18,355 bases of DNA from a virus (Duplodnaviria; Heunggongvirae; Uroviricota; Caudoviricetes), in IMG/VR virus record IMGVR_UViG_2534682080_000004, positions 1 to 18,355 of that record; one strand, given 5' to 3'. Made by a program: the position numbers and the translations under genes. Positions 8,538-9,468 of the stretch are shown here, one piece after another (position 1 is the first letter of the stretch; the number at the start of each line of letters is the position of its first letter). The notes beneath the pieces are model-generated. The model saw only the letters and a list, made by a program, of their open reading frames with translations. It made no database searches and was not told where the DNA came from.

Positions 8538-9468
8538 ATTAACCGGCTATGTATGGGATGGTTGCGCTGCGTCAGGCATGAAATTATCCAGCGTGGCAAT
8601 TATGGCCCGCCTGGCTGATTTCAGTAATGACGAAGGTGTGTGCTGGCCATCAATTGAAACCATTGCCCGTCAGATTGGCGCGGGGATGAGTACCGTCAGA
8701 ACGGCTATCGCACGGCTGGAAGCAGAAGGCTGGTTAACGCGTAAGGCGCGTCGCCAGGGTAACCGCAATGCGTCGAATGTTTATCAGCTTAACGTTGCGA
8801 AGCTTCAGGCAGCGGCATTTTCTCAACTGTCAGATTCTGACCCGTCAAAATCTGACGCATCAAAATCTGACCCGTCAAAATTTGATGCGTCGAAATCTGG
8901 CAAAAAAGCGGGTTTTCACCCGTCAGAATCTGGCGGGGATCCGTCAGTAAAATCAAAACATGATCCGTCAGATAAAAAAACTTCTCGTCCGGACGCTTCG
9001 CAACCGGACACGCAGACGGCTGAACAGGAGTTTTTAACTCGCCATCCTGATGCGGTTGTATTCAGCCCTAAAAAGCGCCAGTGGGGAACGCAGGATGATT
9101 TGACCTGCGCACAGTGGCTCTGGAAAAAAATCATCGCCCTGTACGAGCTGGCCGCCGAATGTGACGGCGAGGTGGTTCGTCCCAAAGAACCGAACTGGAC
9201 AGCCTGGGCAAACGAAATTCGCCTGATGTGTGTGCAGGATGGTCGTACTCACAAACAAATCTGCGAGATGTACAGCCGCGTCAGCCGCGATCCGTTCTGG
9301 TGCCGTAACGTGCTCAGCCCGTCGAAGCTGCGGGAAAAATGGGATGAGCTTTCCCTGCGCTTATCGCCGTCCATCAGCACATACACAGAAAAACGCGAAG
9401 ACCCGTATTTCAAATCCAGTTACGACAACGTGGACTACAGCCAGATCCCGGCAGGATTCAGGGGGTGA
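8527..9468 (+). CDS. Replication initiation protein (O-like, winged-helix N-terminus) with internal iteron array
   Basis: N-terminus LSSVAIMARLADFSNDEGVCWPSIETIARQIGAGMSTVRTAIARLEAEGWL is a winged-helix replication-initiator type; central low-complexity SDPSKSDASKSDPSK is encoded by DNA iterons; position after cII as for lambda O. Confidence 0.7.
   Translation: MSTKLTGYVWDGCAASGMKLSSVAIMARLADFSNDEGVCWPSIETIARQIGAGMSTVRTAIARLEAEGWLTRKARRQGNRNASNVYQLNVAKLQAAAFSQLSDSDPSKSDASKSDPSKFDASKSGKKAGFHPSESGGDPSVKSKHDPSDKKTSRPDASQPDTQTAEQEFLTRHPDAVVFSPKKRQWGTQDDLTCAQWLWKKIIALYELAAECDGEVVRPKEPNWTAWANEIRLMCVQDGRTHKQICEMYSRVSRDPFWCRNVLSPSKLREKWDELSLRLSPSISTYTEKREDPYFKSSYDNVDYSQIPAGFRG
8832..8960. repeat. 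Candidate origin iterons (about 15-bp repeats containing CCGTCA) followed by A-rich tract
   Basis: TCTGACCCGTCAAAA / TCTGACGCATCAAAA / TCTGACCCGTCAAAA / TTTGATGCGTCGAAA then CACCCGTCAGAA, GATCCGTCAGTA, GATCCGTCAGAT and GATAAAAAAA; analogous to ori-lambda inside gene O. Confidence 0.6.

What the first reader, a model, noticed from the sequence alone, without database searches (positions are those of the whole stretch)
8832..8960. Iteron array and A-rich tract embedded in the replication-initiator gene (candidate origin)
Four tandem roughly 15-bp repeats containing CCGTCA/GCATCA cores, then three more dispersed copies and an A-rich stretch, lie inside the O-like coding sequence and encode its low-complexity linker. 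This mirrors ori-lambda within gene O and marks the likely prophage origin.
Basis: partly seen in the sequence, partly recalled or inferred. Interest (0 to 1): 0.45.

Follow-up and report, generated by a model that had tools for sequence, protein, structure and literature searches.

The report
Prophage replication origin inside initiator gene
The short repeats inside this prophage's replication-initiator gene are conserved as DNA rather than as protein, so they are very probably the sites the initiator binds to start copying the phage genome, an ordinary lambda-style arrangement seen here in a common but unstudied initiator family.

Summary
Window 8829-8901 holds five 15-bp units. Three more CCGTCA copies follow at 8920, 8941 and 8965, then a moderately AT-rich 40-mer (8946-8985, 72% AT). 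All of it lies in gene 8527-9468 and encodes its predicted disordered linker (aa 102-161).

The window is an SfIV/SfII/CPS-53-type lambdoid prophage. The gene is an O-like initiator with an HTH_36 winged-helix N-domain, not Pfam Phage_rep_O.

Comparison with about 70 relatives supports selection on the DNA:
- In the linker, 75-96% of codons are unchanged at identical residues, against 34-54% in the N-domain, although the linker protein is less conserved.
- The conserved unit is an 11-bp palindrome, TCAAAATCTGA, including its third codon positions. The 4-nt spacer varies freely.
- Two relatives carry a copy in another reading frame.
- Copy number varies in 15-bp steps.
- Initiators with different N-domains carry different palindromic repeats at the same place, even when the C-domain is the same.

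The origin interpretation is supported, though no binding or origin activity was tested. No helicase-loader gene is present. This is a new member of a known kind, of modest interest.

The parts
8527..9468 (+). Replication initiator gene (313 aa), O-like. It has a winged-helix N-domain (aa 1-101), a disordered linker (aa 102-161) and a helical C-domain (aa 162-282) followed by a short tail.
   Evidence: ORF list and translation. Pfam HTH_36 at aa 23-70, E 4e-11. PHROG 391 'replication initiation O-like', E 2.8e-134. 99.4% DNA identity to SfIV gp41. AlphaFold domain map. Fold matches are to MarR/ArsR-type winged helices only. The C-domain is 35% identical to the phi80 gp15 C-domain, E 2e-25.
8829..8901 (.). 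Tandem iteron array: five 13-bp dyad-symmetric elements at a 15-bp period, starting at 8829, 8844, 8859, 8874 and 8889. The 11-bp cores are 8830-8840 TCAGATTCTGA, 8845-8855 and 8860-8870 TCAAAATCTGA, 8875-8885 TCAAAATTTGA, and 8890-8900 TCGAAATCTGG (degenerate).
   Evidence: Tandem Repeats Finder and the repeat finder, with inverted repeats I3, I5 and I7. Enrichment against shuffles. Family logo of 214 units from 60 genes: core positions carry 0.9-1.8 bits, including third codon positions, while the spacer third positions carry 0.3-0.6 bits.
8919..8937 (.). Isolated, extended iteron: the 19-bp near-palindrome CCCGTCAGAATCTGGCGGG, with its core at 8923-8933. It is the best-conserved binding-site-like element of the family.
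   Evidence: Read from the sequence. Core match. Near-invariant at all three codon positions across 63 dereplicated relatives. In loci L006 and L083 it is duplicated 32 nt downstream in another reading frame.
8913..8975 (.). Most conserved DNA block of the family: TTTTCACCCGTCAGAATCTGGCGGGGATCCGTCAGTAAAATCAAAACATGATCCGTCAGAT. It includes two direct repeats GATCCGTCAGwTAAA (8938-8952 and 8962-8976, 24 bp apart), each with a half-site-like TCAG and a Dam site (GATC at 8938-8941 and 8962-8965).
   Evidence: Per-column information across 63 genes. Repeat family D6. The first GATC is present in 63 of 63 genes (Asp is always GAT there) and the second in 56 of 63, against a background of 1 GATC per 329 nt in the same genes.
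8946..8985 (.). Moderately AT-rich patch (72% AT) immediately to the right of the iterons. It is the candidate DNA-unwinding element.
   Evidence: Nearest-neighbour stability scan: least stable 40-mer and 20-mer of the gene, 95th percentile of the window. The position relative to the iterons matches the 39-bp High-AT region of ori-lambda (PMC6022878). That it actually unwinds is an inference.
8800..9020 (.). Full extent of the segment under DNA-level (synonymous-site) constraint, taken here as the proposed origin region.
   Evidence: Sliding-window codon identity against Klebsiella phage 1 LV-2017: 80-95% inside this segment, 15-55% in the flanking N-domain and about 50% in the C-domain. Mosaic junctions with phiNP (shared up to about 9005) and mEp460_4F5 (shared from about 8972) fall at its right edge.

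Best explanation
The 8.80-9.02 kb segment is the vegetative replication origin of an SfIV/SfII/CPS-53-type lambdoid prophage. It is embedded in the part of the initiator gene that encodes the disordered interdomain linker.

Shown here: the segment contains five to six dyad-symmetric 11-bp cores (TCAAAATCTGA) at a 15-bp period. A near-invariant 60-bp block follows, with an extended palindrome, two GATCCGTCAG half-site repeats and two Dam sites. Then comes a 72% AT patch. All of this is conserved as DNA, independently of the encoded peptide. The repeat type also switches whenever the N-terminal winged-helix domain type switches.

Inferred: dimers of the initiator's N-terminal winged-helix domain bind the palindromic cores and assemble an O-some-like nucleoprotein complex. 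The stress from that complex opens the adjacent AT-rich patch at 8946-8985. The C-terminal domain, which is homologous to the C-domain of phi80 gp15, then brings in the host replicative helicase. Because the module encodes no P, DnaC-like or DnaB-like protein, helicase recruitment must use host DnaB-DnaC or another host factor, directly or through an unidentified partner. As in lambda, the origin sits in the pR operon, so rightward transcription and repressor control would gate firing.
For: 1. Gene identity and context.

2. The repeats are real and non-random.

3. Selection acts on the DNA.
- At identical residues, codon identity in the linker against the N-domain is 96% vs 48% (phiNP), 88% vs 44% (Klebsiella phage 1 LV-2017), 84% vs 34% (phage Eeyore; Fisher p = 4e-7), 81% vs 38% (Yersinia phage YeP2), 75% vs 54% (Stx2_KH16-043) and 83% vs 52% (KpnBHU6). 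Amino-acid identity is lower in the linker than in the N-domain in every pair.
- Across 69 dereplicated genes, Ser codons in the linker are 82% TCT+TCA, against 25% elsewhere in the same genes. Lys is AAA in 96% of cases, against 62%.
- Third codon positions within the core carry 1.3-1.6 bits, against 0.3-0.6 bits in the spacer.
- KpnBHU6 keeps YCRGAATCTGR while encoding different residues.
- Loci L006 and L083 carry a perfect core out of frame.

4. Position is specific. In 80 prophage loci of 3.3 kb each, cores with up to 1 mismatch lie at +297 to +552 of the gene, with only 3 hits elsewhere.

5. The repeats co-vary with the DNA-binding domain.
- mEp460_4F5 has the same C-domain (96.6% DNA identity) but an unrelated N-domain, and carries 5.4 copies of a 23-bp unit GGTCAAAATGAC... 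instead.
- phi24B O and mEp460 (about 40% N-domain identity) carry GGGGCAGGAGCTGCCCC and GTGCAGGAGATTCAC repeats.
- A relative 52% identical over the whole protein has 15-bp units with a changed core, TCAAATATTGA.

6. The anatomy matches characterised origins. phi80 gene 15 has four annotated gp15 sites at +364 to +440. Lambda has iterons plus a 39-bp AT-rich region within O, in the linker between the DNA-binding and P-binding domains (PMC6022878, PMC7466680).

7. Copy number varies in exact 15-bp (5-aa) steps among 120 homologues. This parallels the four versus six iterons seen in lambda and Stx phages (PMC7466680).

8. The disordered linker coincides with the constrained DNA.
Against: - No binding or replication experiment exists for this family. 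The SfIV genome paper annotates no origin (PMC3851460), and a survey of Stx-phage replication regions states that nothing is known about replication proteins of non-lambdoid types that include HTH_36 proteins (PMC8951638).
- The AT-rich patch is only 72% AT. Many intergenic stretches in the window are less stable.
- A 15-bp spacing places neighbouring palindromes about 1.4 helical turns apart, unlike the 20-21-bp spacing of the annotated phi80 sites. The geometry of any complex is therefore unknown.
- No helicase or helicase-loader gene is in the module, so the recruitment step is conjecture.
- Some natural variants keep only one or two units. Whether those are functional is unknown.
Confidence: 0.8

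Rival explanations
1. The repeats are only a low-complexity peptide linker (Ser/Asp/Lys-rich) expanded by replication slippage. The DNA sequence itself has no function.
For: The array is in frame and encodes a predicted disordered, hydrophilic linker. Copy number varies in 5-aa steps, as slippage would produce.
Against: Synonymous sites are far more conserved in the linker than in the neighbouring N-domain, while amino acids are less conserved. Codon choice is extreme: TCA/TCT for Ser and AAA for Lys. The core's third codon positions are conserved and the spacer is not. The same DNA core is kept with different residues in KpnBHU6 and out of frame in loci L006 and L083.
Confidence: 0.03
2. The conserved DNA is a homology patch that persists because it mediates module exchange between phages (a mosaic-joint 'linker sequence'), or because it was recently swapped. 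It is not a protein-binding origin.
For: The N-domain-plus-repeat cassette is joined to at least three unrelated C-domains. Junctions with phiNP and mEp460_4F5 fall at 8972-9005, at the right edge of the block.
Against: Recent exchange would lower non-synonymous and synonymous divergence alike, but amino-acid divergence is higher in the linker. Conservation is position-specific and palindromic, with a freely varying 4-nt spacer. It holds across 60+ lineages from many genera whose adjacent N-domain DNA is near saturation at synonymous sites. Unrelated N-domains bring their own, different palindromic repeats.
Confidence: 0.05
3. The palindromes are binding sites for the initiator or another regulator, but they serve autoregulation, copy control or a transcriptional roadblock. 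Replication starts elsewhere in the prophage.
For: Winged-helix proteins of this fold are mostly transcription factors. DnaA-box-like 9-mers are enriched in the window, with 8 of 14 at 5465-8170, outside the gene. The AT-rich patch is weak.
Against: No other repeat cluster of comparable quality exists in the window. The position, dyad symmetry, adjacent AT-rich patch and cassette behaviour all match characterised lambdoid origins (PMC6022878, PMC7466680). Iterons in known systems do both jobs, so this rival overlaps the main explanation rather than excluding it.
Confidence: 0.08
4. The near-invariant block at 8913-8975, with its two GATC sites, is recognised mainly by a host factor (for example SeqA on hemimethylated DNA, or Dam-dependent control) rather than by the phage initiator.
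For: GATC is present at the first site in 63 of 63 relatives, with Asp always GAT, whereas Asp is 72% GAC across the linker as a whole. The second site is present in 56 of 63, about 24 bp away. Many relatives encode a DNA adenine methylase just downstream of the initiator gene.
Against: The block also contains the best copy of the initiator-type palindrome and two TCAG half-sites. SfIV and this window lack the methylase gene (PMC3851460). No test of methylation dependence was possible. This would be an added layer of control, not an alternative to an origin.
Confidence: 0.04

Closest known systems
ori-lambda inside gene O of bacteriophage lambda
   Same: The origin lies inside the initiator gene, in the region coding for the flexible linker between the DNA-binding N-domain and the C-domain. 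It has several dyad-symmetric initiator sites followed on the right by an AT-rich unwinding region. The gene is in the pR operon after cII (PMC6022878, PMC7466680).
   Different: The N-domain here is Pfam HTH_36, not Phage_rep_O. The sites are 11-bp cores at a 15-bp period, rather than 18-bp inverted repeats. The AT-rich patch is only 72% AT. No P gene follows.
Phage phi80 gene 15 and its four annotated gp15 binding sites (JX871397)
   Same: The C-terminal domains are homologous (35% identity over 114 aa, E 2e-25). The binding sites lie at +364 to +440 of the gene, comparable to +303 to +410 here.
   Different: The phi80 N-domain is Phage_rep_O. Its sites are unrelated in sequence (GGAAACGGGAA/TTCCCGAAAACGG type) and spaced 20-21 bp. 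phi80 has the P-like gene 14, which has no homologue in the window.
Stx-phage origins (933W, P27) with six instead of four iterons
   Same: Iteron number varies naturally within one origin type. Here it ranges from about 1 to 11 units in 15-bp steps (PMC7466680).
   Different: Those are true lambda O/P replicons with experimentally footprinted iterons.
yfdO pseudogene of the E. coli K-12-type cryptic prophage CPS-53/KpLE1
   Same: The DNA is nearly identical from window 8760 onward: iterons, conserved block, AT-rich patch and C-domain, followed by yfdN (PerC family). The left-arm genes yfdP-yfdT are also shared.
   Different: In that prophage the immunity region and the first ~78 codons of the initiator are deleted, so the repeats remain without their DNA-binding domain. 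My recollection that databases call yfdO a 'defective replication protein O' was not checked here.
HTH_36 initiators of 'Eru'-type Stx phages, phi24B O and SfV/mEp460 replication protein
   Same: They share the N-domain family at about 40% identity and have a repeat-bearing linker at the same position (PMC8951638).
   Different: They have different palindromic repeat sequences and periods (21-24 bp). Some are followed by a primase-helicase (phi24B P).
Iteron origins of plasmids (R6K, RK2, pPS10 type)
   Same: Repeated binding sites for a winged-helix initiator next to an AT-rich region (general knowledge; reviews listed but not read).
   Different: Plasmid iterons are usually direct repeats of about 17-22 bp in helical phase, located outside the rep gene, and often accompanied by DnaA boxes. 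Here the sites are palindromic, 15 bp apart and inside the coding sequence.

Membership tests
Lambda-type origin embedded in the initiator gene (ori-lambda / phi80 ori kind) | Lies inside the initiator gene, in the segment encoding the interdomain linker | tested here: met
   The array and conserved block at 8829-8985 lie within ORF 8527-9468. The AlphaFold low-confidence linker, aa 102-161, corresponds to nt 8830-9009.
Lambda-type origin embedded in the initiator gene (ori-lambda / phi80 ori kind) | Several repeated sites with internal dyad symmetry | tested here: met
   Five tandem palindromic cores and one isolated one. The family logo is TCAAAATCTGA.
Lambda-type origin embedded in the initiator gene (ori-lambda / phi80 ori kind) | AT-rich unwinding region directly to the right of the iterons | tested here: inconclusive
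   8946-8985 is the least stable 40-mer of the gene, but it is only 72% AT and at the 95th percentile of the window. Unwinding was not tested.
Lambda-type origin embedded in the initiator gene (ori-lambda / phi80 ori kind) | Repeat sequence and N-terminal DNA-binding domain are inherited and exchanged together (specificity cassette) | tested here: met
   The same C-domain occurs with an unrelated N-domain and different repeats in mEp460_4F5. The same N-domain and repeats occur with three different C-domains. Diverged N-domains have changed cores.
Lambda-type origin embedded in the initiator gene (ori-lambda / phi80 ori kind) | The initiator binds the repeats, and the fragment supports initiator-dependent replication | not testable with these tools
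   Needs EMSA or footprinting and a plasmid-maintenance or origin-mapping experiment.
Lambda O protein family (Pfam Phage_rep_O, PF04492) with P-type helicase loader | N-terminal domain matches Phage_rep_O | tested here: not met
   Pfam gives HTH_36 (42.9 bits) and no Phage_rep_O hit, whereas phi80 gp15 scores 88 bits on Phage_rep_O.
Lambda O protein family (Pfam Phage_rep_O, PF04492) with P-type helicase loader | A P-like (or DnaC/DnaB-like) gene follows the initiator gene | tested here: not met
   The downstream genes are PerC-family, LexA-like, RusA, KilA-N, DUF968/HNH and Q. tblastn with phi80 gp14 finds nothing better than E 0.37.
Lambda O protein family (Pfam Phage_rep_O, PF04492) with P-type helicase loader | C-terminal domain homologous to a characterised O-type initiator | tested here: met
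   35% identity to phi80 gp15 aa 174-275, E 2e-25.
Plasmid-type iteron origin | Direct repeats of about 17-22 bp in helical phase, outside the rep gene | tested here: not met
   15-bp period, palindromic units, inside the coding sequence.
Purely coding low-complexity repeat | Synonymous positions free to vary, with conservation following the peptide | tested here: not met
   Synonymous sites are more conserved than in the flanking domains and the peptide is less conserved. Out-of-frame and re-coded copies keep the DNA core.

The most novel reading that the evidence does not exclude
This would be a distinct, very common class of 'initiator-only' lambdoid replicon. A winged-helix HTH_36 initiator coats a dense array of overlapping palindromes only 15 bp apart. 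It then fires without any phage-encoded helicase loader. The near-invariant 60-bp block with its pair of Dam sites (8913-8975) would act as the landing pad or timing switch for host factors (DnaB-DnaC, SeqA/Dam), replacing the role of lambda P. The short tail motif DYSxIPxGFRG, shared by three unrelated C-domains, would be the host-contact peptide.
Probability: 0.2. Interest if true: 0.55.

Novelty: new member of a known kind. Interest (0 to 1): 0.3.

Why it matters
The block at 8790-9030 is present in 2058 of 5426 complete E. coli genomes. It also occurs in Shigella serotype-converting phages SfII and SfIV and in prophages across Enterobacterales.

Neither the SfIV genome paper nor the GenBank/RefSeq annotation of the relatives examined marks an origin for this replicon type. 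The literature on related HTH_36 modules in Stx phages says their replication is uncharacterised.

Pinning the origin to about 220 bp and defining the iteron consensus would help in three ways:
- It gives a direct handle for incompatibility or exclusion tests between co-resident prophages.
- It helps interpret coverage peaks after prophage induction.
- It opens the question of how a lambdoid replicon without a helicase loader recruits DnaB.

The synonymous-site test used here is also a general computational way to find origins hidden in coding sequence.

Tried and rejected
- Extra CCGTCAGA copies at 8667 and 8693 (in the N-domain coding region, in other reading frames) and at 8401 (in the upstream gene) looked like outlying half-sites. 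The two N-domain copies are not conserved in relatives (14 of 68 and 2 of 57), so I dropped all three.
- A terminator-like hairpin on the minus strand at 8922-8909 is not conserved in the family consensus. I treat it as a chance match.
- Rfam found no RNA family in the region. The promoter scan found none between 7200 and 9700.
- Fold and sequence searches of solved structures returned only generic MarR/ArsR winged helices for the N-domain and nothing informative for the C-domain.
- I looked for a plasmid that uses this replicon as natural proof of origin activity. Most hits are chromosomes or megaplasmids carrying prophages. A 16-kb circular E. coli record (NZ_CP148542) consists of a lambdoid early-right segment with a related initiator, but that gene is interrupted in the linker and is accompanied by a DnaC-like ATPase. 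It proves nothing.
- The upstream 112-aa gene (DUF4222) was considered as a possible partner protein. It is present next to the initiator in only about 40% of loci, regardless of C-domain type.
- Literature searches for a described origin in SfII/SfIV/SfV and for the 'initiator-solo' module class found nothing usable in the held library.
- GC-skew on this scale was uninformative.
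Full report
**What is there**

Window 8527-9468 (+) is a 313-aa ORF. Tandem Repeats Finder reports one array inside it at 8836-8899: period 15, 4.3 copies, 81% matches, or period 30 at 88%. The repeat finder places further copies in the same register at 8815, 8830 and 8908, and shows that the units are mutually inverted as well as direct (I3, I5, I7).

Read as DNA, the array is a run of alternating half-sites: GTCAGA-T-TCTGAC CC GTCAAA-A-TCTGAC GC ATCAAA-A-TCTGAC CC GTCAAA-A-TTTGAT GC GTCGAA-A-TCTGGC. A further copy, TCAGAATCTGG, sits at 8923-8933 inside a 19-bp near-palindrome, CCCGTCAGAATCTGGCGGG. Two direct repeats GATCCGTCAGwTAAA follow at 8938 and 8962. The least stable 40-mer of the gene is 8946-8985, at 72% AT.

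The 11-mer TCAGAATCTGA with up to 2 mismatches is found 16 times in the window, against 5.4 +/- 2.5 expected (0 of 200 shuffles). Nine of those matches are in 8830-8933. Its span is somewhat too narrow.

**Context**

The gene is 99.4% identical in DNA to gp41 of Shigella phage SfIV and 98% to the SfII homologue. The neighbours are lambdoid:
- a cI-like S24 repressor gene at 6622-7296 (-);
- a cII-like gene (Phage_CP76) at 7619-8182;
- a small ORF at 8179-8517;
- the initiator gene;
- then PerC-family, LexA-like, RusA, KilA-N, DUF968/HNH and Q-like genes.

The protein matches PHROG 391 'replication initiation O-like' (2.8e-134). Its N-terminus matches Pfam HTH_36, not Phage_rep_O.

AlphaFold, using 38 homologues, gives a winged helix at aa 1-101, a disordered stretch at aa 102-161 and a confident helical C-domain at aa 162-282. 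Fold matches are to MarR/ArsR-type winged helices. The disordered stretch corresponds to nt 8830-9009, which is where the repeats lie.

**Is the conservation in the DNA or in the peptide?**

I collected the homologous genes of 11 phages and 80 prophage loci from one genome per species across Enterobacterales.

1. Synonymous sites.
   - In pairwise codon alignments with the window, codons at identical residues are the same in only 34-54% of cases in the N-domain, but in 75-96% in the linker. Amino-acid identity is lower in the linker (35-83%) than in the N-domain (59-89%). For phage Eeyore the contrast is 31 of 37 against 27 of 80, Fisher p = 4e-7.
   - A sliding window against Klebsiella phage 1 LV-2017 shows one block of 80-95% codon identity from about 8800 to about 9020, with flanks at 15-55%.

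2. Codon choice. In 69 dereplicated genes, linker Ser codons are 82% TCT or TCA, against 25% elsewhere in the same genes. Lys is AAA in 96% of cases, against 62%.

3. Position-specific conservation. I stacked 214 units found only by 15-bp periodic extension, excluding the anchor unit.
   - Positions 1-11 (TCAAAATCTGA) carry 0.9-1.8 bits. That includes the third codon positions 3, 6 and 9, at 1.6, 1.3 and 1.3 bits.
   - The third positions in the 4-nt spacer carry 0.6 and 0.3 bits.

4. Re-coded and out-of-frame copies.
   - KpnBHU6 keeps YCRGAATCTGR while encoding PKSGR/SESEP/SESGR/PESER.
   - Stx2_KH16-043 (L006) and a Citrobacter prophage (L083) carry a second copy of TTTGACCCTTCAGAATCTGAC 32 nt downstream of the first. 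It is out of frame and encodes RLTLQNLT instead of FDPSDSG.

5. Position. Cores with up to 1 mismatch occur at +297 to +552 of the gene in nearly every locus. There are only three other hits in 80 loci of 3.3 kb each.

6. The best-conserved stretch. Window 8913-8975 is near-invariant at all codon positions in 63 genes. Its first GATC is present in 63 of 63 genes, with Asp always GAT there, whereas Asp is 72% GAC across the linker as a whole. The second GATC is present in 56 of 63. The background is one GATC per 329 nt.

A purely peptide-level repeat is excluded by these results. Simple recent exchange of the segment is also excluded, because that would lower amino-acid divergence too.

**Link to the DNA-binding domain**

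The N-domain-plus-repeat cassette is found fused to at least three unrelated C-domains:
- the phi80-gp15-like type seen in the window;
- Phg_2220_C;
- a third type shared with mEp460.

Conversely, mEp460_4F5 has the window's C-domain (96.6% DNA identity from nt 446 of the gene) behind an unrelated N-domain. At the same place it carries 5.4 copies of a different 23-bp unit plus three 12-bp units.

Other relatives point the same way:
- phi24B O and mEp460 are HTH_36 relatives at about 40% identity. They carry three or four 21-24-bp palindromic units, GGGGCAGGAGCTGCCCC and GTGCAGGAGATTCAC respectively.
- A relative 52% identical over the whole protein keeps the 15-bp period but has a changed core, TCAAATATTGA/TCAACAGTTGA.

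This is the behaviour expected of an initiator-specificity cassette, as is classically known for lambdoid O genes.

**Comparison with known origins**

In lambda, four iterons, each an 18-bp inverted repeat bound by an O dimer, and an adjacent 39-bp High-AT region lie within O. The N-terminal part of O binds DNA, the C-terminal part binds P, and a flexible linker separates them (PMC6022878). Stx phages have six iterons, and two iterons next to the AT-rich tract suffice for unwinding (PMC7466680).

The phi80 record annotates four gp15 sites at +364 to +440 of gene 15, spaced 20-21 bp. The phi80 gp15 C-domain is 35% identical to this protein's (E 2e-25), but its N-domain is Phage_rep_O.

The present element therefore works like ori-lambda or the phi80 origin and shares a C-domain with phi80. 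It is not a member of the Phage_rep_O initiator family. It also lacks a P/gp14, DnaC-like or DnaB-like gene.

**Most likely mechanism**

Shown here: dyad-symmetric, DNA-selected repeats that co-vary with a winged-helix domain, followed by the most easily melted stretch of the gene.

Inferred:
- N-domain dimers occupy the palindromes and form an O-some-like complex.
- The 8946-8985 patch opens.
- The C-domain recruits the host helicase machinery. How it does so without a loader is unknown.
- The conserved pair of Dam sites suggests methylation- or SeqA-linked control. This is speculative, and this phage, like SfIV (PMC3851460), lacks the dam gene that many relatives carry just downstream.

**Distribution**

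The 8790-9030 block occurs in 2058 of 5426 complete E. coli genomes. In the K-12-type cryptic prophage CPS-53/KpLE1 the yfdO pseudogene begins at the equivalent of window 8760. It retains the whole block and the C-domain but has lost the N-domain and the immunity region. Linker length among 120 homologues changes in exact 5-aa steps, from 14 to 70 residues between the N-domain and the GGDP anchor. That corresponds to roughly 1 to 11 units.

**Verdict**

The finding is correct in substance. It is a lambda-style origin embedded in an initiator gene, in a widespread initiator family for which I found no origin annotated or tested. The kind is well known, so surprise is low. The value lies in the precise map, the consensus, and the open question of loader-independent helicase recruitment. 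My confidence that this is the initiator-bound origin is about 0.8.

Noticed in passing
window 9465-12859: The replication module has no helicase loader or helicase gene. The initiator is followed by PerC-family, LexA-like, RusA, KilA-N, DUF968/HNH and Q genes. phi80 gp14 (P-like) has no homologue anywhere in the window. Most relatives likewise have a methylase or PAPS-reductase-like gene, not a loader, after the initiator.
   Followed up: partly
window 9420-9465 (protein tail); L002, L003, L007, L008, L011 gene ends: A short C-terminal tail motif, (V)DYSxIPxGFRG/S/T, is shared by initiators with three otherwise unrelated C-domains. It may be a common host-contact peptide. In lambda the last five residues of O are essential (PMC6022878).
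   Followed up: no
window 5465-8170 and scattered: DnaA-box-like 9-mers (TTATCCACA with up to 1 mismatch) number 14 in the window, against 4.2 +/- 2.0 expected (0 of 200 shuffles). Eight lie between 5465 and 8170, around the immunity region upstream of the initiator gene. None lies in the iteron block.
   Followed up: no
window 1-2621: This is the prophage left end. A host-like aldehyde dehydrogenase ORF (1-1254) is followed by tRNA-Thr(CGU) at 1369-1444 and then the integrase. The integrase is split into two overlapping ORFs (1459-2247 and 2163-2621, minus strand), which suggests a frameshifted int gene and possibly a defective prophage.
   Followed up: partly
L095 5972-6679 (E. coli K-12-type CPS-53/KpLE1, yfdO): The cryptic prophage keeps the complete iteron, conserved-block and AT-rich segment and the initiator C-domain, but lacks the N-terminal DNA-binding domain and the whole immunity region. 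Homology to the window starts at 8760. The same block is in 38% of complete E. coli genomes.
   Followed up: yes
L093 10780-10812 (phage phi80 gene 15): Just right of phi80's own gp15 sites and AT-rich stretch, before the shared C-domain, lies GAGAATTCTGACGAATCCTCTGACGCA. It resembles the TCAGAATCTGAC/TCTGACGCA units of the window. It may be a vestige of an earlier cassette swap or a coincidence.
   Followed up: no
window 9262-9351: There is a second, weaker peak of synonymous-site conservation against Klebsiella phage 1 LV-2017 (11 of 14 and 12 of 16 codons identical). It lies inside the C-domain, around RDPFWCRNVLSPSKLREKWDEL. The cause is unknown.
   Followed up: no
L087 (Tatumella saanichensis) gene +372 to +552; L092 (soil MAG) linker: Distant family members have reorganised arrays. 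One has a 60-bp (20-aa) unit repeated four times, each carrying one core. The other has a 33-bp unit (EPPVFRATSGL) repeated three times. The unit architecture evolves while the position stays fixed.
   Followed up: no
L094 (NZ_CP148542, 15,977-bp circular E. coli record): A 'plasmid' that consists only of a lambdoid segment from cI/cro to the lysis genes. It has a related initiator (52% identity) interrupted in its linker, variant 15-bp iterons (core TCAAATATTGA) and a DnaC-like ATPase gene. It could be a lambda-dv-like replicon or an assembly artefact.
   Followed up: partly
window 12839-15231 (minus strand): An AT-rich two-gene insert lies between the Q-like gene and the holin gene: a 391-aa NA37/YejK-like nucleoid-associated protein and a 404-aa protein with no Pfam or PADLOC match. 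This region holds most of the least stable DNA in the window and looks like a moron or accessory cargo.
   Followed up: partly
window 8179-8517: The 112-aa ORF directly upstream of the initiator (PHROG 1170; RefSeq calls it DUF4222 in homologous records) accompanies the initiator in about 40% of 83 related loci, irrespective of C-domain type. Its function is unknown.
   Followed up: partly
protein P0101 (920-nt contig): One database variant reads the iteron array in another frame (SNLTHQNLTRQNLMRRNL) and returns to frame at AGFHPSE. It is either a sequencing error or evidence that the linker peptide is dispensable while the DNA is kept.
   Followed up: no
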